A stretch of DNA of 64,000 nt, taken from the NCBI GenBank assembly GCA_000004985.1, contig GG738881.1. The stretch is one strand, 5' to 3'. Each line of letters starts with the position of its first letter. The stretch's first letter is position 1. The notes beneath the pieces were generated by a model. The model did not search any database. It saw nothing but the letters and a program-made list of their open reading frames with translations, and had not been told where the DNA came from. The DNA comes from Naegleria gruberi. Lineage: Eukaryota. Both the position numbers and the translations under genes were made by a program. Shown here one piece after another: positions 14,288 to 64,000 of this stretch.

Positions 14288-15363
14288 TTACAAAATCAAG
14301 AAATTTATGAAAATTACAAAAATTATTGAGAAAGAATTCAATAATTGAATCTGCCAAGATGAAATTTGACTCACTGATCCACTACTCAATATCTTGTTCG
14401 TAATTAGTGATGAAAATGGTGTAATATCTCCATAAACTTTCAGATAACACGATGAGCATAATTTCAGAGCTTTCAACTCTTTCATTCTGGAATAAATTGC
14501 ATTCGAATTGTAGAGAAAGGTGTGGCTTGTTTGGTTGAGGATGGATTGCCAGCCACTTTCGAATGATGGGTAAGAAATGATGGTGGCCTTTTTCAGATTG
14601 GATTTGGCCCAAGTTTCGTATGTGGATTTGGTCACGACCGAAACTATGACTCCATTCTTGTCCATTTCCTTTTCGTTTGCAATGGAAATTGTGGAATTAT
14701 CCTTTTCTGATCGAATAAATCCAGCTCCACTGGCAGCATATGGACCTATCTCAGTTTGAATAGTTTATAATAGTAAAAAAACTTTCGAATACATTAAAAT
14801 GACTTACAGAGTAAGGTAACTTGAGTTTTTCTGTCTTCTGCCCAATTGACTGCTGCAATTGCAACATCACAAACTCCAGAATTTACTGCTTCTTTCATGA
14901 CTTCGAATACTCCATTCGAAACATCGAGTGGAATCATTGTTCCATTCAATTCAGAATGTGTGGAAGGATATTGATTTCGAATAGTTTGAATCAATAATCT
15001 GGCTGCCATATTATTAAAAACCATTCGAGTTGTATCGGCCGATTTTTCATAACATAAATTCAAGTTTAGTTTAGTATAGTTGAAAGTGGCTGGAAATTCC
15101 AAACCACTTCTACACGAATCGTCTCCTGGAAACATGAAACCAACTTCTGTCATGTATTGCATCCATTCCTTACTGTGGACGTATCTATTTCATTCGAATG
15201 TGTATGTTTTTATTAGAAAGTTTGGAATAATTGAAGGATCTTACCTTTGGGTAGCTATGGAAATGACATCCACAAAATTTTGAGAAACATAAACTTGACC
15301 ATAACTATTCGAAATGGTAAACATCACGATGATGAATGCTGCGCAGAGAATTAATTTCAGCAT
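14288..15363 (-). CDS. secreted bacterial-type solute-binding protein family 3 (PBPb) domain protein, 3 exons
   Basis: Exon 1 (~15245..15363) is a signal peptide (MLKLILCAAFIIVMF…). Exon 2 (~14808..15184) and exon 3 (14288..~14745) encode a type-2 periplasmic-binding fold (…GVCDVAIAAVNWAEDRKTQVTLL|CPYAASGAGFIRSEK…KSTYETWAKSNL…). Introns are ~60 nt with GTAAGA/GTAAGT donors. The hydrophobic C-terminal tail is a possible GPI signal. Confidence 0.65.
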
Positions 15364-15779
15364 TGTTCGAAACTTTTTTTTAAATTATGAAAAACCTAAT
15401 GCTTACTGGTTCGAAATTGACAGTTTTAATGTCATTTGCATGTGAGAGATTGAAATGTTGAAAGATGCAGTCCAATACAGATGCGCCATTTTCAATGCTC
15501 CTTTGATTTGGTAATCGCAATTATCATGATTAGTAATGAAATGAATTGATTGATAGAAATGGATGCTTTAACATTAGAGAGATAGTACATATTCTTACGA
15601 GATTGTAAATTGTTCATACCGTAAATAATTTCAAAATTGTCTCTTGTCAATGGATGATTTGGAATATTAACAGAGAGATTGTAAATTCTGACGCAATTGT
15701 AAATTGTTTATCTGTAAATAATTTCAATCTAAAATGGATATTATTGAAATATTACAGCTATCTTGTTAAATACTTTTTA

Positions 15780-16038
15780 TAAATCAATAAATTAATTTTA
15801 TTAAAGATTAATATTAAATCATATAGCAGATTGTATATCAGAATGGCGTTCTTTTGGTTACTCCAAGTTTAGAACAGTACTCGTCACGTCACAATCAATG
15901 AAATAATATAATCCTTAATGGTTCGTTAAGTTTAACGACCACACGATGAAACAATTTTTGAAAACTATCATTCCACTATAATAGTTCTTAATTACAATTT
16001 GGAATAATAGTAAATTGTTTCAATAATTCGTGTGGTCC
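15780..16038 (-). promoter_or_regulatory. 3'UTR of selenoprotein TrxR, expected to carry a SECIS element (exact structure not resolved by hand)
   Basis: A SECIS must sit downstream of the UGA-Gly-UAA terminus. AUGA cores occur ~68 nt and ~217 nt after the stop on the minus strand. A perfect 9-10 bp inverted repeat (plus 15946..15954 GACCACACG and 16029..16038 CGTGTGGTCC) brackets the first AUGA. Confidence 0.4.
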
Positions 16039-17760
<1,722 letters not shown>

Positions 17761-19300: not shown

Positions 19301-20869
19301 TTATTGTTTAAGTTTCTTGGATGGTTGTGTGGATGGCTCGTCAACTTGTTCAATTTTACGACTCTTCTTTTCAGAACTTGAACTTGTTGTAACAATGTTA
19401 ATATCAACCCAAGCATCAAGTGAAGGATGAAGAACTCCACCAGAAAAGTGAGCACAAACTGTATTCAAATTAGAGTCGGAAGTGAAATAAATAAAAGTGT
19501 GCAATTCACCACATGCTGCATTAATCTTAAACTTGCTAGATTTCAAGTGCAAGTCAACGTAGTGTCTTTCAATTTTAGAGAAGGTTGACACTGATGGTTC
19601 AGCAAGTGGTGATTCTCTCATTTCATCCAAATAATAACCAAGTTGATTACAAATATTCGATCCAGTAACATAGACATGATTAATTGAAGATTGATCCTTT
19701 TCCAATGATGTGGTTGTACAAACAGTGTGATATCCACCAACACTGATATCAGAGAATGTTTTGGCAATATCTTCTGGGAGAGGTACATCATTCAAATTGG
19801 TACCATCAAGTCTATCTCTTTGTGAGGAAATCTTTTGTCCAAGTTGACCTTCCAAATATCTACCAAATCCAGCAAGACTAATCTCTTGTTCATTCTTACG
19901 GAAGAGGAAGAAGGCATGTTCACTTCCAGAAATAATTCTAGATACAGGTAATGTTGTCTTGACCAATGTTGGAGTAAAGACAGGTTCAACAAACAATTTG
20001 CTTTGTCCACAGAAATATACTTGACCATCATTTCTCAAAAACAATGACCATGCATTACCAGCTTGAACTTGAACTGTTTTGGAATCAATATCTTTACATT
20101 TCAAAAGAGAGAATTGTGGAACAATATCTTCATCTAGTAATTCTGAATTGGCATTATCACTTGGATCAAATCCTAATTTACCATTATCTGGTGAACCTGT
20201 AATATAAACTCTGTTATCATTGGTCAACATGAGAGTGTGATTAGTACCACAAGCAACTTGTAAAATACTTGTACTGGTTGGTTTGAGTTTTGACATGTCT
20301 ACAAGTTGTGGAGGATTTACAATTTTAGGTAATCCAGCAGAATCACTCAATGAACATTGACCAAAGGTATTATTTCCTGATGCATACATAACAAGTGGCC
20401 TTCTGCCAATGAAAAGATTGTAGAAATATCCACAACTCACATCAACAATATCTTCCTCAAGTAAATCACATAAAGTTGGTGTTTTTACATATTTTCTTGA
20501 TTTATAATCATCATCAACCATTGAATTTTTAAAAGAGACTGGTAAATTTTGTAAATCGTTCATACCACAACAATAAACTTTGTGAGAATCAGTGATAAAA
20601 AATGTTCTATTTGTTCCGCAAATAACCTTAACAATAGTTTGCTTGTTGAACACTTTTGTTGTATTCAATATGTGTACTTTACATTTTTCTTGTTCTTCCC
20701 TTGTCCAATACGAGTTGTGATCATGTTGAAGTAATTGACTTCCGGCTACCATATTTTGTGAAGGATGCATTGCAGAGAGAATAATATTTCTCCTCTCATA
20801 ATTTGTCGATGTTTGAACACCTAATTGATGATGACTATTATCACCAAAACACAAGATACGAAGACTCAT
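19301..20869 (-). CDS. RCC1 (regulator of chromosome condensation)-repeat protein
   Basis: A 522-aa ORF with repeated RCC1 blades (CFGDNSHHQLG, CGTNRTFFITD, SGNNTFGQCSL, ACGTNHTLMLT, AGNAWSLFL, …). Confidence 0.75.
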   Translation of the reverse strand: MSLRILCFGDNSHHQLGVQTSTNYERRNIILSAMHPSQNMVAGSQLLQHDHNSYWTREEQEKCKVHILNTTKVFNKQTIVKVICGTNRTFFITDSHKVYCCGMNDLQNLPVSFKNSMVDDDYKSRKYVKTPTLCDLLEEDIVDVSCGYFYNLFIGRRPLVMYASGNNTFGQCSLSDSAGLPKIVNPPQLVDMSKLKPTSTSILQVACGTNHTLMLTNDNRVYITGSPDNGKLGFDPSDNANSELLDEDIVPQFSLLKCKDIDSKTVQVQAGNAWSLFLRNDGQVYFCGQSKLFVEPVFTPTLVKTTLPVSRIISGSEHAFFLFRKNEQEISLAGFGRYLEGQLGQKISSQRDRLDGTNLNDVPLPEDIAKTFSDISVGGYHTVCTTTSLEKDQSSINHVYVTGSNICNQLGYYLDEMRESPLAEPSVSTFSKIERHYVDLHLKSSKFKINAACGELHTFIYFTSDSNLNTVCAHFSGGVLHPSLDAWVDINIVTTSSSSEKKSRKIEQVDEPSTQPSKKLKQ

Positions 20870-24638: not shown

Positions 24639-24646
24639 AAAAAGGT
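24639..24646 (-). terminator. Pol III oligo-T terminator after tRNA-Cys
   Basis: Minus strand reads ACCTTTTTAAAA immediately after the discriminator. Confidence 0.5.
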
Positions 24647-24735
24647 AGGGTGGTACGTGGATCGAACACGTGACCATCGGATATCTGCTGCAAATTACAT
24701 TGCAATCCGGTGCTCTACCGCTGAGCTAACCACCC
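24647..24735 (-). tRNA. tRNA-Cys (GCA) with 17-nt intron
   Basis: Minus strand reads GGGTGGTTAGCTCAGCGGTAGAGCACCGGATTGCAA[TGTAATTTGCAGCAGAT]ATCCGATGGTCACGTGTTCGATCCACGTACCACCCT. It has a 7-bp acceptor stem, a T-loop TTCGATC, anticodon loop TTGCAAA with a canonical 37/38 intron that pairs with the anticodon, and the Cys-typical U73 discriminator. A T5 run follows at plus 24639..24643. Confidence 0.7.
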
Positions 24736-24876
24736 CTTCGATCATTACTTTTAAATATTCATTTCTATAGGAACAATATCCTTAATCAACTTTTGTTTAT
24801 AATTGTAATATTTTATTTAATTGAATAGTTTAGTTAGAAACAATTTAATATGTGAGATTTTCAAGTAGTGGTGTTG

Positions 24877-28574: not shown

Positions 28575-30413
28575 TCAAAACGTACCATCTTGACAGGATT
28601 GGTTGCTCCAACATTGTATATCAATAAATGTTGATTGAGTCATTTTACGTATGAATTCAACTCCTTCACCAGAAATACTATTTTCATAAATAGAAAGTCT
28701 GGTCAATTGGTTCATTTTACTGATTGCCTTGAATCCTTCATCACTAATATTATTATCGCAAACATCTAGATGGGTCAATTGTTTCAGTTCACTTATTGAC
28801 ATAGCTCCATCATTACCTAAATTATTTCCTTTAATCACAAGTTCAGTTAAATTTTTCAAGTCTGAAAGGTGTTTAGCTCCTTCACTACTAATAGAATTAT
28901 GGGAAATATCTAGAATAGTCAGTTTTTTCAGTTCACTTATATGCATAGCTCCATCATTACCTAAATTATTTCCTGTAATCACAAGTTTAGTTAAATTTTT
29001 CAAGTCAGTAAGGTAATTTGCTCCTTCACTGCTAATAGAATTATCGGAAATAGAAAGCTCCTTCAATTGTTTCAATTCACTAATGTATTTAGCTCCTTCA
29101 TCACTAATACGATTATAGGGGATATTGAGACAGGTCAATTGATTCAATTGACTGATGTATTTCACACCTACACCTCTCATTTCACTGTAAGGAAAATTAA
29201 GAATTGTTAAATTTTTCAATTCGCTAATGTATTCAAGTCCTTCACCATCAAAATGACTTTCAAGAATAGAAAGTTCTGTCAATTGTTTCAATTTACAAAT
29301 GTGAAAAACTCCTTTCTTATTAATATTGTTTACAGAAATGTCAAGTTTGGTTAATTGTGTCATTTCGCTTATATACTCAGCTCCTTGTTCACAAACGTAA
29401 TTCTCAGAAACAAGTAGAGTAGTTAATTTTTTCATATTTCTAATATATTTAGCACCTTCTTCACGAACATAGTTTTTAGTAACATCAAGATATGTTAATT
29501 GTTTCAATTCACTGATATATCTAGCTTGTTCAGATCTAATACCACTTTCAGAGATATAAAGACTTGTCAATTGGTTCAATTTGCTAATATATTTAGCTCC
29601 CTCAATACTAATTTCATTTTCACTAATGTGAAGAACTATCAATTTTTTCAATTGACTTATTGATTGAAGTACTTTATCGTCAATACTACATGTATTAATA
29701 TTAAGGCATGTCAACTGCTCAAATTTACCAATATATTGAGCTCCTCCACTACCTATCTTAATACGAGAAATATCAAGATTTGTTAAATGTTCCAATCCAC
29801 TCAAATATATTATTCCTGCATCACCAATACTATCATTGCAGGCAATTTCAAGACTTGTTAATTGTTTCAATTGACTGATATATTTAGCGCCTACATTGTC
29901 AATATAATTAGCAGAAATATTAAGCTTTGTTAATTTGTTAAATGATTCACTGATAATTTTAACTCCTTCGGAACCAATATAATTACCAGAAATGTAAAGA
30001 CTTGTTAATTGTTTCAATTCAGCCATGCTTTCAACATGTTCATCATCAATATCCATTCCTTGAATTTCAAGACTAGTCAATTGTTTCAATTGACCAATAT
30101 ATGTAACTGATTCGGAATCAATTTTAACTCCAACAACGTAAGGAATACAAAGATTAGTTACTGATTTCATCAATATTAATTTTTTGTAAATATTTGATAG
30201 TACTTTAATCTCAAGATTTGCAATATTTTGTAAAAATTGACCATTTACATCATTGGAATGACATTTAACAGTCATATTATGACATGTTGATAGAATGACA
30301 TTGTACCATTGTTTAGAAACTAATGCACAATTCATGACAAGAAATTTAAAATCGTCACCATAGAACGATAAAATTTCATAAATAACATCATCTTGAAAAA
30401 CTTCTCTTTCCAT
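28575..30413 (-). CDS. F-box / leucine-rich-repeat (RNI-type LRR) protein
   Basis: The N-terminus has an F-box-like motif (DDVIYEILSFYGDD…WYNVI). It is followed by ≥20 LRRs of the ~24-aa form L..LT.L.IS.N.I..EGAKYISELKQ. The 3' part contains a ~130-bp near-identical tandem DNA duplication. Confidence 0.7.
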   Translation of the reverse strand: MEREVFQDDVIYEILSFYGDDFKFLVMNCALVSKQWYNVILSTCHNMTVKCHSNDVNGQFLQNIANLEIKVLSNIYKKLILMKSVTNLCIPYVVGVKIDSESVTYIGQLKQLTSLEIQGMDIDDEHVESMAELKQLTSLYISGNYIGSEGVKIISESFNKLTKLNISANYIDNVGAKYISQLKQLTSLEIACNDSIGDAGIIYLSGLEHLTNLDISRIKIGSGGAQYIGKFEQLTCLNINTCSIDDKVLQSISQLKKLIVLHISENEISIEGAKYISKLNQLTSLYISESGIRSEQARYISELKQLTYLDVTKNYVREEGAKYIRNMKKLTTLLVSENYVCEQGAEYISEMTQLTKLDISVNNINKKGVFHICKLKQLTELSILESHFDGEGLEYISELKNLTILNFPYSEMRGVGVKYISQLNQLTCLNIPYNRISDEGAKYISELKQLKELSISDNSISSEGANYLTDLKNLTKLVITGNNLGNDGAMHISELKKLTILDISHNSISSEGAKHLSDLKNLTELVIKGNNLGNDGAMSISELKQLTHLDVCDNNISDEGFKAISKMNQLTRLSIYENSISGEGVEFIRKMTQSTFIDIQCWSNQSCQDGTF

Positions 30414-33880: not shown

Positions 33881-33953
33881 TGGGGTCAGTGAGGATCGAA
33901 CTCACGACCTTAGGATTATGAGACCTACGCGCTACCGACTGCGCCATGACCCC
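33881..33953 (-). tRNA. tRNA-Met (CAT), elongator type
   Basis: Minus strand reads GGGGTCATGGCGCAGTCGGTAGCGCGTAGGTCTCATAATCCTAAGGTCGTGAGTTCGATCCTCACTGACCCCA. The anticodon loop is CTCATAA and pairing is G1-C72, not the initiator A1:U72. It closely matches eukaryotic elongator tRNA-Met. A T7 terminator lies directly downstream. Confidence 0.85.
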
Positions 33954-38157: not shown

Positions 38158-38238
38158 CGTTGAGGATGGGATTCGAACCCACGCGGATTACTCCACCAAC
38201 TTAGCAGGCTGGCGCCTTAACCACTCGGCCACCTCAAC
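38158..38238 (-). tRNA. tRNA-Ser (GCT), class II with long variable arm
   Basis: Minus strand reads GTTGAGGTGGCCGAGTGGTTAAGGCGCCAGCCTGCTAAGTTGGTGGAGTAATCCGCGTGGGTTCGAATCCCATCCTCAACG. The D-arm is identical to animal tRNA-Ser, the anticodon loop is CTGCTAA, and the discriminator is G73. A TTTTGTC terminator follows. Confidence 0.9.
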
Positions 38239-61233: not shown

Positions 61234-63414
61234 CTATTTCCAATTGCTGGAACTGGTGAGTCTGGAGAGAGTGGAGAAGGTGGACCTGTTGTCAATGCTC
61301 AAATTTATTCTCCATACTCTCTTGATGTTAACTCTAAAGGTGAACTAATCTTTATCGATGAAAATTACAAAGTTAAAAAGATTTTCAAGAAAGGTACATT
61401 ACCGTATCGAATTCGTTAAATGGCAAATCGATTTCAAATAAATCTACTTATTTTTTATTGAATTTAGCATACATCTCTTGTAGTTTAGTTTTGGCAAGTT
61501 CCTTTTCTTTTTCGATTTCTTCTTTCATTTCTTGTTGAACACCTGCAATAATGGTATCATACATATCAATATTCTTGTTCATTAATTTCAAATCTTCGTT
61601 TTCTTCTGCTGCTGATTTGTCGGAAACTATCTTGTTGTATCTTTCTTGCCAATCTTTTAAGAACTGTTCTTTCTCTTCCAATAATTTGCGTTCAGCATCT
61701 AAAAACTTGAAATACTTGCTTTGAATCGCTTTCATTTGAACAACAACTTTGTGTGACTTTTCTAATTTCAAGTTGGATTCGAATTTGTCAAGTTCAATTG
61801 CTTTAAAGAATTGAATTTCCAAAGTACCAAATTTCTTCATATCCTTTTCATTGATATTTTTCAATTTGGTTGCAAAAATAGGCGAAACAGCTTCTGTTTT
61901 TCTTTTTTTGTAAGCTTGACTGATTTCTGCTTTGTTCTTCTCATACTCCTTTAAAAGGTTATCAACAAATTCATCTTCATCATCACTTGAACAATAATCA
62001 TCTTTAAAAGAAGCCTTCATAGTAGTATCCAACACTTTCTGTGCATTATCTTTTGTTTCTTTAGCACCATTTAATTCCTTTTCAATGTCGTCAATTATAC
62101 TCTGAAGGTTCTTTTTTACAAAACCATCGAATAGCTTATTGATATAGGAGTGATTTGGATAGCTTTTCGAAGATTTAGGAATGAAACCTTGTTTTCTAAG
62201 CTTACCACCAGTAGATGGAAACATAAATTGATCATTTTTGGATTCTTTTACCATTTTTTCATACCATAACTTTGACACCAAAACAATTTCCGAATCTTCG
62301 AGCATACTTTCTCCATAGGGCTTATGGCTGAGATTTGCGAGTAAGACTTCAACAAATCTATCAAATGTGTCAAAGTTGGCAGAGAGTTTGGTTGGAATTT
62401 TGAGTGATTTTTTTTGTGGAAATTCCAAAATAAAGAAAGGTGATGTTCTTTTTGTAAAATCACCCAAAAACATTGGCACAACGAAAATACAATTTGATTT
62501 TTATTTTAAATCGAAATTAGATATCGAATGTGAGGTGAATCCATTTACATTATTGGTGATGGACCTGCACTTGCTGTTACTTTGAATAATCCATTTCAGA
62601 TGGTTTTCAATTCAGATGGTGATTTATACTTTTCAGAAGAATTGAATAGAATTAAAAAGCTCAGTAATGGACAAGTAACAACTTTGGTTGGAAATGAAGC
62701 CAATGGTTATTCTGGAGATGGTACTTTAGCACAAAATGCACAGGTTAATTTACCATCTGGTTTAGCTATCAAACCAGGAACTAATTTCGAATGGAACTAT
62801 TATAACAATTACACTGTTGGGGTTGATATGGGAAGCTTTGATGGAGATTTGGCCATAAATGCAGGACTGAACTTTCCATTTGGATTAATTGTCACTCCCG
62901 CAGATGAAATTGTTTTTGTTGATGTAGTCAATCATAGAATTTGTATTGTTTTCTCAAATGGAACTATCAATACTATTGCAGGTAATGGGAAGAGTGGATT
63001 TAGTGCAGATGGTCAATTGGCAACTCTTCGTTGGATTTGAGAGGAGGAATTGCAATGAATTCACTTGGTGAAATAGTTTTCTCTGACAGTAATAGAATTC
63101 GTAAATGGGTAACGAATGGAACACTGACAACAATTGCTGGTAGGCAAAGCTCTGGATATAGTGGTGATGGTCAGTTGGCCCTTAATGCCCTTCTCAAAGC
63201 TCCACTATTATAAGTTGATTCGAGTGATAATATTTACATTACTGATACAGAAATTCGACAGATTTCAATGATTTGTTCATCTCCATATGTAATGAGAGGA
63301 AATGAATGCATTCCAACTTGTTTTGGTTTCAATTCAAGTAGTTTACATGTTTGTTCTGGACGTGGACAATGCAACGAAACAGATACATACACCTTATTAT
63401 GGAAGCAATTGTGA
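61234..63414 (+). pseudogene. NHL-repeat / EGF-like protein gene, disrupted (frame breaks and an in-frame TAA), with ~1.1-kb intron hosting an antisense gene
   Basis: The exon at ~61234..61393 reads IAGTGESGESGEGGPVVNAQIYSPYSLDVNSKGELIFID…. After a GTACAT donor, it resumes at ~62535 (ESIYIIGDGPALAVTLNNPFQMVFNSDGDLYF…, 62582..63040). It then switches frame near 63015..63030 (…GQLAT/LSLDLRGGIAMNSLGEIVFSD…) and hits TAA at 63211..63213 inside an NHL motif (…APLL*VDSSDNIYITD…). After that it encodes EGF-like Cys patterns with further frame changes to ~63500. Confidence 0.45.
61448..62479 (-). CDS. coiled-coil hypothetical protein, located inside the NHL-gene intron on the opposite strand
   Basis: An intact 343-aa ORF rich in Lys/Glu heptad-like sequence (…KLEKSHKVVVQMKAIQSKYFKFLDAERKLLEEKEQFLKDWQERYNKIV…). 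Confidence 0.5.
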   Translation of the reverse strand: MPMFLGDFTKRTSPFFILEFPQKKSLKIPTKLSANFDTFDRFVEVLLANLSHKPYGESMLEDSEIVLVSKLWYEKMVKESKNDQFMFPSTGGKLRKQGFIPKSSKSYPNHSYINKLFDGFVKKNLQSIIDDIEKELNGAKETKDNAQKVLDTTMKASFKDDYCSSDDEDEFVDNLLKEYEKNKAEISQAYKKRKTEAVSPIFATKLKNINEKDMKKFGTLEIQFFKAIELDKFESNLKLEKSHKVVVQMKAIQSKYFKFLDAERKLLEEKEQFLKDWQERYNKIVSDKSAAEENEDLKLMNKNIDMYDTIIAGVQQEMKEEIEKEKELAKTKLQEMYAKFNKK

Positions 63415-63614: not shown

Positions 63615-64000
63615 TTAACACCATCTAACACCTCCAACACAACCATATCCACCATAACCACCATAACCACCATATCCACCATAGAATGGAACACCATATC
63701 CACCATAACCACCATAGAATGGCATTGAATAAGCACTTCCATAATTGTTTCCATAACTAGTTGGTCCAGTATAATAAGATCCATAACTTGAATATGGATT
63801 TGAGTTGACTGCATTCACTTGATTCCAATAGGATTGAGTATTTTGTCCATATTGATTGTAATTTCCTCCAGTGACTCCATAGTTAGAACCAGAACCTCCT
63901 GATGTACCATAATTAGTACCATAATTGTTGCTATATTGGCAGTTGACCAAGCAAGAAGCGATGAGTACAGTGGCTACAAGAGCAATGATTAGTTTGTTCA
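63615..64000 (-). CDS. secreted Gly/Tyr/Asn-rich low-complexity protein (5' end beyond window)
   Basis: The minus strand at the window edge encodes …NKLIIALVATVLIASCLVNCQ (a signal peptide), then YSNNYGTNYGTSGGSGSNYG…GGYGGYGGYGCVGG. The start codon lies past position 64000. Confidence 0.5.
   Translation of the reverse strand, partial: NKLIIALVATVLIASCLVNCQYSNNYGTNYGTSGGSGSNYGVTGGNYNQYGQNTQSYWNQVNAVNSNPYSSYGSYYTGPTSYGNNYGSAYSMPFYGGYGGYGVPFYGGYGGYGGYGGYGCVGGVRWC

What the first reader, a model, noticed from the sequence alone, without database searches (positions are those of the whole stretch)
15780..16047. Selenocysteine thioredoxin reductase ending Gly-Cys-UGA-Gly-UAA; the required SECIS is not yet located
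The minus-strand ORF ends …ACT GGT TGC TGA GGA TAA at 16039..16047. This is the canonical GCUG redox tail of animal-type TrxR. A single extra Gly codon between an in-frame TGA and the real stop cannot be chance, so the organism must have full Sec machinery. A SECIS therefore has to sit in the 3'UTR (plus 15780..16038 region). AUGA cores occur 68 nt and 217 nt after the stop, but in this AT-rich UTR I cannot fold a convincing helix II by hand. Finding the SECIS type and the Sec-tRNA and SelB/SPS2 genes would define the selenoproteome of this lineage.
Basis: partly seen in the sequence, partly recalled or inferred. Interest (0 to 1): 0.6.

Follow-up and report, generated by a model that had tools for sequence, protein, structure and literature searches.

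The report
Naegleria selenoprotein thioredoxin reductase, SECIS located
This is the Naegleria gruberi gene for an animal-type thioredoxin reductase whose second-to-last codon (UGA) encodes selenocysteine; the missing SECIS signal is 152 nt after the stop codon with a GUGA rather than AUGA core, and the gene was already reported as a selenoprotein in 2013.

Summary
The minus-strand gene (exons 17757..17556 and 17345..16039) ends Cys-UGA-Gly-UAA at 16050..16039. It is a full-length high-Mr thioredoxin reductase of Naegleria gruberi. Twenty-four orthologues from several eukaryotic supergroups keep the same UGA-GGN-UAA tail.

The support is as follows:
- It is one of two conservation islands in the Naegleria 3'UTR.
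- It shows 4 compensatory pairs among three Naegleria species.
- A covariance model built only from non-heterolobosean TrxR SECIS elements ranks it first in the 675-nt stop-to-next-gene interval (14.6 bits, E 0.01).

Rfam's SECIS models miss it, and the SECIS pattern alone is common in this AT-rich DNA.

A second element is a very stable stem-loop that starts 1 nt after the UAA (16037..15937, -46 kcal/mol, z -9.4). I found an equivalent in 23 of 24 Sec-TrxR 3'UTRs. It corresponds to the proximal stem-loop described for mammalian TR1, whose function is unknown.

The selenoprotein itself is already published (da Silva et al. 2013), so overall interest is low.

The parts
17556..17757 (-). TrxR coding exon 1 (ATG at 17757..17755; FAD-binding GGGSGG; first half of the CVNVGC redox centre)
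   Evidence: ORF and sequence; assembled CDS of 1509 nt; Pfam Pyr_redox_2
17346..17555 (-). Intron, 210 nt, GT...AG
   Evidence: GUAUGU donor and UCUAG acceptor. Splicing restores GGTCVN|VGCIPKK, and the spliced protein is 100% identical to the N. gruberi protein P0001
16039..17345 (-). TrxR coding exon 2, running through Cys-Sec(UGA)-Gly-UAA
   Evidence: Pfam Pyr_redox_2, Pyr_redox and Pyr_redox_dim. E 3e-168 to rat TrxR1 1h6v, aligned through the last residue
16045..16047 (-). In-frame UGA, the selenocysteine codon (penultimate codon)
   Evidence: Conserved in all 24 homologues examined
16039..16044 (-). Gly codon GGA and the true stop UAA
15937..16037 (-). Proximal stem-loop (PSL): a 101-nt hairpin starting 1 nt after the UAA (7 nt after the UGA). 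Base stem GACCACACGA/UCGUGUGGUC. The UAA itself can pair with UUA at 15935..15933
   Evidence: MFE -45.9 kcal/mol, z -9.35, 0 of 200 shuffles as stable. The base arms are conservation islands. It is the strongest post-stop hairpin among 38 long ORFs in the window and has no other copy there. Equivalents are present in 23 of 24 Sec-TrxR 3'UTRs
15827..15900 (-). SECIS element, form 2. Helix I 15896..15891 with 15834..15829 (plus 15900..15899 with 15828..15827); core GUGA 15887..15884 then C 15883; helix II 15882..15871 with 15852..15841; unpaired AAA 15870..15868; mini-stem 15867..15863 with 15857..15853; loop AGUAA; 3' core UGAU 15840..15837
   Evidence: Conservation island. 97% of cells paired versus 44-49% in slid controls, with 4 compensatory pairs. 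The same structure comes from RNAalifold. Independent model R3 ranks it first in the stop-to-next-gene interval, 14.6 bits, E 0.01. Coordinates verified
15797..15802 (-). AAUAAA, the probable polyadenylation signal about 25 nt after the SECIS
   Evidence: Sequence. AAUAAA is at the equivalent position just after the SECIS in N. lovaniensis and N. fowleri. Function inferred, not shown
15968..15971 (-).
   Evidence: Base-paired inside the PSL (ACUAUUAU/AUGAUAGU). Not conserved in other Naegleria. Only a poor scanner candidate
15819..15822 (-).
   Evidence: Lies 3' of SECIS helix I, where conservation has fallen to background. No scanner or model hit

Best explanation
The locus is the Naegleria gruberi gene for a high-Mr (animal-type) thioredoxin reductase with a C-terminal Gly-Cys-Sec-Gly redox centre. 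The UGA at 16047..16045 is read as selenocysteine. The signal is a form-2 SECIS in the 3'UTR at 15900..15827, whose core starts 152 nt after the UAA. By analogy with other eukaryotes, its kink-turn (GUGA.../...UGAU) is bound by SBP2, which recruits EFSec with Sec-tRNA(Sec) to the ribosome when it meets the UGA. Between the stop codon and the SECIS lies a very stable proximal stem-loop (16037..15937) whose base sits 7 nt after the UGA. When the UGA is in the A site, this hairpin is at about the mRNA entry channel. I infer that it influences the choice between Sec insertion and termination, by slowing the ribosome or by pulling the SECIS to within about 50 nt of the UGA. Shown here: the gene structure, the family assignment, the conserved UGA-Gly-stop tail, and the existence, conservation and covariation of both RNA structures. 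Inferred: actual Sec insertion, SBP2/EFSec involvement, and any function of the proximal stem-loop.
For: Gene and family:
- 100% identity to N. gruberi TrxR.
- Pfam Pyr_redox_2, Pyr_redox and Pyr_redox_dim.
- E 3e-168 to rat TrxR1, aligned to the final GCxG.
- CVNVGC restored by splicing.

Tail: UGA-GGN-UAA in N. lovaniensis, N. fowleri, Willaertia, Acrasis, Acanthamoeba, Balamuthia, Guillardia, two metatranscriptome mRNAs and 14 metagenome contigs.

SECIS:
- Conservation is 0.65-0.90 across 15894..15835, against about 0.2 in the surrounding UTR.
- 97% of cells are paired versus 44-49% when the partners are slid, with 4 compensatory and 4 wobble-compatible changes.
- RNAalifold gives the same helices unprompted.
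- The core fits UGAN/KGAW (PMC3753652).
- A GUGA_AA core is a documented natural variant, including in a sponge TR gene (PMC3473315), and it also occurs in 4 metagenomic TrxR SECIS candidates.
- Model R2, which contains no Naegleria sequence, puts its two best hits in 170 kb exactly on the N. fowleri and N. lovaniensis orthologues.
- Model R3 (six non-heterolobosean elements) scores the N. gruberi element 14.6 bits, first in the 675-nt candidate interval at E 0.01, with the runner-up at 7.2 bits.
- My scanner recovers the published Acanthamoeba SECIS as a positive control (PMC8038987).

PSL:
- z -9.35.
- Present 0-4 nt after the UAA in 23 of 24 Sec-TrxR 3'UTRs, with unrelated sequences.
- Absent from a Cys-type insect TrxR.
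- Median -25.9 kcal/mol versus -3.9 in motif-matched non-TrxR controls, p = 0.004.
- Strongest of 38 post-stop regions in the window.
Against: - Rfam's curated SECIS models give no hit, even on a 96-nt slice. They also miss the AUGA-core N. fowleri element.
- The element's own folding energy is unremarkable (z -1.2).
- My SECIS pattern matches about 0.76 times per kb in this AT-rich window, and the N. gruberi element ranks only 14th of 71 (strict filter) or about 19th of 97 (relaxed filter) by energy.
- Model R2, trained only on AUGA cores, gives the N. gruberi element just 5.3 bits.
- R3's E-value over the whole search space is 1.4. E-values from these quickly calibrated models are rough.
- No tRNA-Sec or Sec-machinery gene is in the window. 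The rest of the genome could not be searched and the key paper (da Silva 2013) is not held.
- There are no expression, 3'-end or proteomic data.
- For the PSL: in mammals, deleting the TR1 structure did not alter Sec insertion behaviour (PMC3737529), and the SelS PSL gave opposite effects in two studies (PMC3628699, PMC6844570). Only one Cys-type control was examined.
Confidence: 0.85

Rival explanations
1. The UGA is simply the stop codon, as in the public annotation (500-aa protein ending ...TGC). The downstream GGA-UAA is then fortuitous and the enzyme works without selenocysteine.
For: GenBank/RefSeq annotate the protein as ending at the UGA. No Sec machinery is visible in the window. Rfam finds no SECIS.
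Against: UGA-GGN-UAA is conserved in all 24 homologues, across lineages where the neighbouring 3'UTR sequence is otherwise unalignable. A conserved, covarying SECIS-shaped element lies downstream. Truncated annotation at a Sec-UGA is the usual pipeline artefact, as described for Acanthamoeba in PMC8038987. According to the literature quoted in PMC3628699, truncated mammalian TrxR1 is inactive.
Confidence: 0.03
2. The functional SECIS is built on one of the AUGA motifs the first reader flagged (15971..15968 or 15822..15819), or lies elsewhere downstream, and 15900..15827 is not the SECIS.
For: These sites have the canonical AUGA, whereas the proposed core has GUGA. The relaxed scanner lists the 15971 site as a second, weak candidate. 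SECIS-like patterns are frequent in this DNA.
Against: The 15971 AUGA is fully Watson-Crick paired inside a -46 kcal/mol hairpin and is not conserved in N. lovaniensis or N. fowleri. The 15822 AUGA lies in unconserved sequence and has no helix II. Independent model R3 gives nothing above 7.2 bits anywhere else between the stop and the next gene. The orthologous position in N. fowleri and N. lovaniensis carries an AUGA-core SECIS that aligns base for base with the GUGA element.
Confidence: 0.03
3. The N. gruberi SECIS is a weakened copy. The A-to-G change in the core and a C.A mismatch in the mini-stem reduce recoding, so this strain makes mostly truncated or Cys-substituted enzyme.
For: N. gruberi is the only one of five heteroloboseans with G at this position. 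A model trained on AUGA cores drops from 18-19 bits for the orthologues to 5.3 bits. Mini-stem pair 37-51 is broken only in N. gruberi.
Against: GUGA_AA cores are the majority form in several algae and a sponge (PMC3473315). They also appear in four independent metagenomic TrxR SECIS candidates. The N. gruberi lineage carries four compensatory double substitutions that preserve helices I and II, which indicates continued selection on the structure. The coding sequence and the UGA-Gly-UAA tail are intact.
Confidence: 0.08
4. The post-stop hairpin has no role in UGA recoding. It is kept for another reason, such as mRNA stability or localisation, enforcing termination at the UAA, protection from decay, or a protein-binding site.
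For: Deleting the equivalent structure in mammalian TR1 did not change Sec insertion behaviour (PMC3737529). SelK PSL deletion had no effect, and SelS PSL deletion increased rather than decreased read-out (PMC6844570). The authors state that the function of the TR1 PSL is unknown.
Against: Its position is fixed relative to the stop codon (0-4 nt) in 23 of 24 Sec-TrxR mRNAs, although sequence and length vary freely. It is absent from the one Cys-type TrxR examined. The 7-nt spacing from the UGA matches that of known recoding stimulators, such as SelS SL1 at 9 nt (PMC3628699) and the SELENON SRE (PMC8704476).
Confidence: 0.4

Closest known systems
Mammalian thioredoxin reductase 1 (TXNRD1; structures 1h6v, 2zz0, 3ean)
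   Same: Same domain order, CVNVGC N-terminal redox centre, HPxxAE motif and C-terminal Gly-Cys-Sec-Gly. About 55% identity over the full length, E 3e-168. Sec is encoded by a penultimate UGA followed by Gly and UAA. A stable RNA structure lies immediately downstream of the UGA (PMC3737529, PMC6844570).
   Different: The N. gruberi protein has a short N-terminus and no Grx domain. The gene has a single intron. The SECIS core is GUGA rather than AUGA. The 3'UTR is short (about 250 nt to the AAUAAA).
Acanthamoeba castellanii TrxR-L (Leitsch et al. 2021, PMC8038987; PMC11459619)
   Same: A free-living amoeba with a large Sec-type TrxR annotated as truncated at the UGA, followed by Gly-UAA and a 3'UTR SECIS. 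I also find a post-stop hairpin there (-70.9 kcal/mol).
   Different: The SECIS there was predicted as type 1, lies further away (282-355 nt after the UAA), and has an AUGA...UGAC core. It belongs to an unrelated supergroup. The sequence after the stop is GCUGCUG... rather than GGACCACACG....
Naegleria TrxR selenoprotein and Sec machinery reported by da Silva et al. 2013 (Mol Biochem Parasitol 188:87; PMID 23603359)
   Same: Same organism. [quoted passage not shown] PMC4561486 confirms an SPS2 fusion in N. gruberi.
   Different: I could not read the paper. I therefore cannot say whether it gives the SECIS coordinates, notes the GUGA core, or mentions the post-stop hairpin.
Proximal stem-loops of C-terminal-Sec selenoprotein mRNAs (SelS SL1/PSL, SelK, SelO, TR1) and the SELENON SRE
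   Same: A stable stem-loop a few nucleotides downstream of the Sec-UGA: SelS SL1 is 9 nt after the UGA and this one is 7 nt. It lies at the very start of the 3'UTR when Sec is penultimate (PMC3628699, PMC6844570, PMC8704476).
   Different: These elements are described only in vertebrates. The SRE lies in coding sequence and has conserved loop and spacer sequence. No SPUR-like sequence motif was looked for here. No functional data exist for any protist.
GUGA_AA-type SECIS elements of Chlamydomonas, Ostreococcus and Amphimedon (PMC3473315)
   Same: G instead of A immediately 5' of the UGA of the kink-turn, with the usual AA motif. One example is a sponge TR gene.
   Different: In those organisms GUGA is the predominant, genome-wide form. 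In Naegleria the two sister species use AUGA at the orthologous site, so here it looks like a lineage-specific substitution. Other N. gruberi SECIS elements could not be examined.

Membership tests
High-Mr (animal-type) selenoprotein thioredoxin reductase | Pyridine nucleotide-disulphide oxidoreductase fold with FAD, NADPH and dimerisation domains | tested here: met
   Pfam PF07992 (1.7e-40), PF00070 and PF02852 (4.1e-29); GGGSGG motif in exon 1
High-Mr (animal-type) selenoprotein thioredoxin reductase | N-terminal redox-active CVNVGC disulphide | tested here: met
   GGTCVNVGCIPKK, formed across the exon junction
High-Mr (animal-type) selenoprotein thioredoxin reductase | C-terminal Gly-Cys-Sec-Gly encoded by GGN-UGC-UGA-GGN-stop | tested here: met
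   GGU UGC UGA GGA UAA at 16053..16039. It aligns with the GCxG terminus of rat and human TrxR1
High-Mr (animal-type) selenoprotein thioredoxin reductase | Selenocysteine is actually incorporated and the enzyme reduces thioredoxin | not testable with these tools
   Needs 75Se labelling, mass spectrometry or an enzyme assay
Eukaryotic SECIS element (form 2) | Located in the 3'UTR, at least about 50-110 nt downstream of the UGA | tested here: met
   The core is 160 nt from the UGA, upstream of AAUAAA (15802..15797) and of the next gene, which starts at about 15363. The minimum-spacing rule is from my own knowledge (Martin et al. 1996)
Eukaryotic SECIS element (form 2) | Kink-turn core with tandem sheared G.A pairs, consensus UGAN / KGAW | tested here: met
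   UGAC (15886..15883) facing UGAU (15840..15837); consensus from PMC3753652
Eukaryotic SECIS element (form 2) | Conserved A immediately 5' of the UGA (AUGA) | tested here: not met
   G at 15887. The orthologues in N. lovaniensis and N. fowleri have A. GUGA is a documented functional-class variant (PMC3473315), so this does not exclude membership
Eukaryotic SECIS element (form 2) | Helix II of fixed length separating the core from an unpaired AA(R) motif | tested here: met
   12 positions, 10 of them paired with a 2x2 internal loop, then AAA; 13 nt from UGA to AA. All helix II pairs are kept across three species, with 2 compensatory and 3 wobble changes
Eukaryotic SECIS element (form 2) | AAR in a bulge followed by an extra apical mini-helix (form 2), plus helix I below the internal loop | tested here: met
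   Mini-stem CUUGG/CCAAA with loop AGUAA. Helix I GAUUGU/ACAAUC plus 2 more pairs, with 2 compensatory changes
Eukaryotic SECIS element (form 2) | Recognised by curated SECIS covariance models (Rfam) | tested here: not met
   No SECIS family hit at E<=10 on 1.1 kb or on a 96-nt slice. The AUGA-core N. fowleri orthologue also gives no hit, so the models as run here lack sensitivity for this clade
Eukaryotic SECIS element (form 2) | Recognised by a model built from independent TrxR SECIS elements | tested here: met
   R3 (six non-heterolobosean elements): 14.6 bits, rank 1, E 0.01 in the 675-nt candidate interval. E is 1.4 over 185 kb. R2 (AUGA-only training set): 5.3 bits
Eukaryotic SECIS element (form 2) | Called by SECISearch3/Seblastian; binds SBP2; supports UGA recoding | not testable with these tools
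   The programs are not available here, and binding and recoding need experiments
Proximal stem-loop (PSL) of C-terminal-Sec selenoprotein mRNAs / SRE-like element | Stable stem-loop beginning immediately after the stop codon of a gene whose Sec is at the C-terminus | tested here: met
   Starts 1 nt after the UAA; -45.9 kcal/mol, z -9.35; strongest of 38 post-stop regions in the window
Proximal stem-loop (PSL) of C-terminal-Sec selenoprotein mRNAs / SRE-like element | Conserved as a structure among orthologues | tested here: met
   Present in 23 of 24 Sec-TrxR 3'UTRs with lineage-specific sequences. Differs from motif-matched controls at p = 0.004
Proximal stem-loop (PSL) of C-terminal-Sec selenoprotein mRNAs / SRE-like element | Modulates UGA recoding | not testable with these tools
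   Mammalian data are mixed (PMC3628699, PMC6844570, PMC3737529). No protist data exist
Organism with a complete eukaryotic Sec pathway | tRNA-Sec, EFSec, SBP2, PSTK, SepSecS and SPS2 genes present | not testable with these tools
The literature reports them (da Silva 2013, cited in PMC8038987; SPS2 fusions in N. gruberi in PMC4561486)

The most novel reading that the evidence does not exclude
The stem-loop that starts right after the stop codon is not a mammalian curiosity. It is an ancient, near-universal cis-element of selenocysteine-type thioredoxin reductase mRNAs, found in Heterolobosea, Amoebozoa, a cryptophyte and many uncultured eukaryotes, always 0-4 nt after the UAA, and absent from a Cys-type homologue. 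It would be maintained because it helps decode a UGA that sits only two codons before the true stop. In the literature I could search it is mentioned only for mammals, with function unknown.
Probability: 0.4. Interest if true: 0.5.

Novelty: already known. Interest (0 to 1): 0.25.

Why it matters
For the finding as given, the value is mainly corrective. The public protein models for this gene and for its orthologues in N. fowleri, N. lovaniensis, Willaertia, Acrasis, Acanthamoeba, Balamuthia and Guillardia stop at the UGA, so they lack the catalytic Sec-Gly. The SECIS is now located to the base, with a GUGA core that AUGA-based or Rfam-based searches miss.

TrxR is a proposed auranofin target in pathogenic amoebae, so correct C-termini matter for recombinant expression and inhibitor work.

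The wider point is that the post-stop stem-loop is conserved across eukaryotic supergroups. If it is functional, that makes an open question testable in simple systems: how a UGA two codons before the real stop is efficiently recoded.

Tried and rejected
1. Rfam cmscan in E-value mode on 15000..16100, on the 96-nt candidate, and on the N. fowleri orthologue gave no SECIS family hit, only chance-level matches to unrelated families. In gathering mode the whole window gave only three tRNAs.
2. ARAGORN found no tRNA-Sec in the window.
3. Model R1, built from Naegleria only, was too sequence-specific (effective N 1.3). It found no other element in the window and did not reach Willaertia or Acrasis.
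4. My first SECIS scanner required a KGAW 3' core and failed the Acanthamoeba positive control. After relaxing to KGAN it recovered the published element. It still missed L011 (CGAA core) and Guillardia. Its background of 0.55-0.76 hits per kb means a pattern match alone is not evidence.
5. MAFFT alignments A2, A3, A5 and A6 put the SECIS cores or helix II out of register and were discarded.
6. Model R2 (AUGA-only training set) supported the N. fowleri and N. lovaniensis elements but gave the N. gruberi element only 5.3 bits.
7. A possible second selenoprotein (plus-strand ORF ending in TGA at 63040, with a SECIS-like hit at 63055 and the second strongest post-stop hairpin) was rejected. It is an NHL-repeat-type gene whose coding sequence continues in another frame.
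8. The idea that the PSL is a repeat or MITE was rejected, because it has no other copy in the window.
9. The da Silva 2013 paper is not in the library.
10. Weak plus-strand Rfam matches over the PSL (SmY and U8, E 2-9) were dismissed as chance.
Full report
OBSERVATION. On the minus strand the sequence reads ...GAC ACU GGU UGC UGA GGA UAA. The 425-codon ORF that ends there is the second exon of a two-exon gene. Exon 1 is 17757..17556, and a 210-nt GT...AG intron spans 17555..17346. Splicing joins ...GGTCVN to VGCIPKK..., restoring the CVNVGC redox centre.

WHAT THE GENE IS. The spliced protein is 100% identical to 'thioredoxin reductase [Naegleria gruberi]' (XP_002674924.1), so the window comes from N. 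gruberi. That public model is 500 aa, meaning it stops at the UGA. Pfam finds the three domains of a pyridine nucleotide-disulphide oxidoreductase. The best solved relatives are rat and human TrxR1, at E about 3e-168, with the alignment running to the C-terminal GCxG. Nearly all of the 120 best database relatives are annotated as ending in ...GC, the signature of Sec-type TrxRs cut off at the UGA.

THE TAIL IS CONSERVED. I fetched the orthologous loci of N. lovaniensis, N. fowleri, Willaertia magna and Acrasis kona. I also fetched homologues from Acanthamoeba, Balamuthia and Guillardia, and two metatranscriptome or short-read contigs. All read GC-UGA-GG(A/U)-UAA. A metagenome scan for ACN-GGA-UGC-UGA-GGN-UAA returned 14 more contigs with a real TrxR C-terminus upstream. 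An insect homologue ending ...SCCS-UAG served as a Cys-type comparison.

LOCATING THE SECIS. Rfam's SECIS models found nothing, even on a 96-nt slice, and they also missed the N. fowleri orthologue. The comparative evidence is what locates the element.

An alignment of the three Naegleria 3'UTRs shows two islands of conservation in otherwise unalignable sequence. One of them, 15894..15835, has 0.65-0.90 three-way identity, higher than the adjacent coding sequence. Beyond about 15815 identity falls to about 0.2.

This island folds as a form-2 SECIS:
- helix I: GAUUGU/ACAAUC, plus two more pairs
- internal loop
- 5' core: GUGA-C (15887..15883)
- helix II: 12 positions with a 2x2 internal loop
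- unpaired AAA (15870..15868)
- mini-stem: CUUGG/CCAAA with loop AGUAA
- 3' core: UGAU (15840..15837)

The core fits the UGAN/KGAW consensus (PMC3753652). Across the three species 97% of cells pair, against 44-49% when the partners are slid. Four pairs show compensatory double changes and four show wobble-compatible single changes. RNAalifold returns the same helices without being given the structure.

N. lovaniensis and N. fowleri have AUGA where N. gruberi has GUGA, which is why a search for AUGA failed. GUGA_AA cores are a documented natural variant. They are the majority form in Chlamydomonas, Ostreococcus and Amphimedon, including a sponge TR gene (PMC3473315). I also found them in four metagenomic TrxR SECIS candidates.

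HOW STRONG IS THE SECIS CALL? The pattern alone is weak. My own scanner finds 0.55-0.76 matches per kb in this AT-rich window, and the N. gruberi element is only mid-ranked by energy. Its first version also failed the positive control, until I allowed a 3' core of UGAC as in the published Acanthamoeba element (PMC8038987).

I therefore built covariance models that contain no Naegleria sequence.
- R2 was built from Acrasis, Acanthamoeba, Balamuthia and one mRNA, all with AUGA cores. Its two best hits in 170 kb fall exactly on the N. fowleri and N. lovaniensis elements (19.2 and 17.8 bits). It gave the N. gruberi element only 5.3 bits.
- R3 was built from six non-heterolobosean TrxR elements, two of them with GUGA cores. 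Its structure was fixed without reference to Naegleria. It scores the three Naegleria elements 14.5-16.4 bits in the same register, all within the top six hits of 185 kb.
- Within the only place a SECIS for this gene can be, the 675 nt between the UAA and the next gene, R3 ranks 15893..15831 first at E 0.01. The runner-up scores 7.2 bits.

These E-values are rough and the training sets are small. Combined with orthology and covariation, I put the location at about 0.85.

The first is paired inside the hairpin described next and is not conserved. The second lies in unconserved sequence just beyond helix I. An AAUAAA at 15802..15797, also present just after the SECIS in the sister species, suggests a 3'UTR of about 250 nt.

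A SECOND ELEMENT: THE POST-STOP HAIRPIN. The other conservation island is the stop region plus GACCACACGA (16037..16028) together with its complement UCGUGUGGUC (15946..15937). These close a 101-nt hairpin that starts 1 nt after the UAA, at -45.9 kcal/mol and z -9.35. It is the strongest post-stop hairpin among 38 long ORFs in the window (median -0.5 kcal/mol), and it is not a repeat.

Every heterolobosean orthologue has one at the same position with a different sequence, and so do Acanthamoeba, Balamuthia, Guillardia and the mRNA L011. The spacer is 0-1 nt, ΔG runs from -21 to -71 kcal/mol, and z from about -4 to -11 depending on the exact boundaries.

L011 is a polyadenylated transcript that shows the full layout in 175 nt: UAA, hairpin, SECIS, poly(A).

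In the metagenome set 13 of 14 TrxR tails have such a hairpin within 0-4 nt of the UAA. Contigs carrying the same 18-nt motif by chance are much weaker: median -3.9 versus -25.9 kcal/mol, p = 0.004. The Cys-type insect gene has none.

This element is not new in kind. Cockman et al. 2019 report predicted proximal stem-loops right after the stop codon in 6 of the 8 human selenoproteins with a C-terminal Sec, including TR1, and say the function of the TR1 one is unknown (PMC6844570). Turanov et al. [quoted passage not shown] The SelS stem-loop, 9 nt after the UGA, promoted Sec insertion in one study and inhibited it in another (PMC3628699, PMC6844570). I did not find its conservation across eukaryotic supergroups described in the searchable literature.

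MECHANISM. Shown here: the gene, its family, the conserved UGA-Gly-UAA, and two conserved RNA structures in the order PSL then SECIS. Inferred from established knowledge of eukaryotic Sec decoding: SBP2 binds the kink-turn and recruits EFSec with Sec-tRNA(Sec), which outcompetes release factor at the UGA. Also inferred, with lower confidence: the hairpin base lies 7 nt after the UGA, so it reaches the mRNA entry channel when the UGA is in the A site, as with known recoding stimulators. Once folded, it also shortens the UGA-to-SECIS path from 160 nt to about 50 nt.

WHAT COULD NOT BE DONE. The window contains no tRNA-Sec or machinery genes. The existence of the pathway in N. gruberi therefore rests on citations of that paper (PMC8038987) and on the SPS2 fusions described for N. 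gruberi (PMC4561486).

NOVELTY AND VERDICT. However, a Sec-type TrxR with a SECIS in Naegleria, together with the Sec machinery of N. gruberi, was published in 2013, so the finding is already known.

Noticed in passing
window 16039..17757 (-); loci L001-L004, L007-L009: The public protein models for this TrxR and for its orthologues or homologues in N. lovaniensis, N. fowleri, Willaertia, Acrasis, Acanthamoeba, Balamuthia and Guillardia all stop at the UGA, so they lack the catalytic Sec-Gly. Almost all of the 120 best database relatives end in ...GC.
   Followed up: yes
L007 3899..3920, L008 3944..3965, L009 3374..3395: Acanthamoeba, Balamuthia (both Amoebozoa) and Guillardia (a cryptophyte) share the identical string UGA-GGU-UAA-GCUGCUG, which forms the 5' arm of their post-stop hairpins. 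Several metagenomic TrxR tails begin similarly (GCCUGCUGCUG, GCCCUGCUGCUG). This could be deep conservation, convergence or gene transfer.
   Followed up: partly
window 62582..63213 (+): An NHL-repeat-like gene changes reading frame at about 63031..63040, probably because of a small intron. Its apparent TGA stop, a strong downstream fold and a SECIS-like pattern at 63055 briefly resembled a second selenoprotein gene, but they lie in coding sequence.
   Followed up: yes
window 24644..24736, 33881..33953, 38158..38238 (all -): Three tRNA genes: Ile(AAU) with an intron of about 19 nt, Met(CAU) and Ser(GCU). None is tRNA-Sec.
   Followed up: no
window about 28700..30100: A blastn run with the AT-rich hairpin sequence gave a ladder of short matches at 28786, 29076, 29292, 29508, 29871, 30018 and 30090. 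This suggests a tandem or dispersed repeat array in the lowest-GC part of the window (27-30% GC between 28 and 34 kb).
   Followed up: no
window 15241..15363 and 14794..15162 (-): The next gene downstream on the same strand appears to start at about 15363 with a signal-peptide-like exon (MLKLILCAAFIIVMFTISNSYG...). This bounds the TrxR 3' region to 675 nt. The downstream neighbour differs in N. lovaniensis (an FHA-domain gene) and N. fowleri, so synteny is not conserved.
   Followed up: partly
window 19301..20869 (-) and 63615..63950 (-): There is a 522-aa ORF with RCC1-repeat-like sequence, and a Gly/Tyr/Asn-rich low-complexity ORF at the window's end. Neither was examined.
   Followed up: no
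L010 1629..2005: In one TrxR contig (Logan SRR3436857, tail GVTEDTGC as in Naegleria) the sequence right after the UAA (CGCGGUCGC) pairs not locally but with GCGAUCGC about 240 nt downstream, closing a large domain. No SECIS was recognised in the 374 nt available.
   Followed up: no
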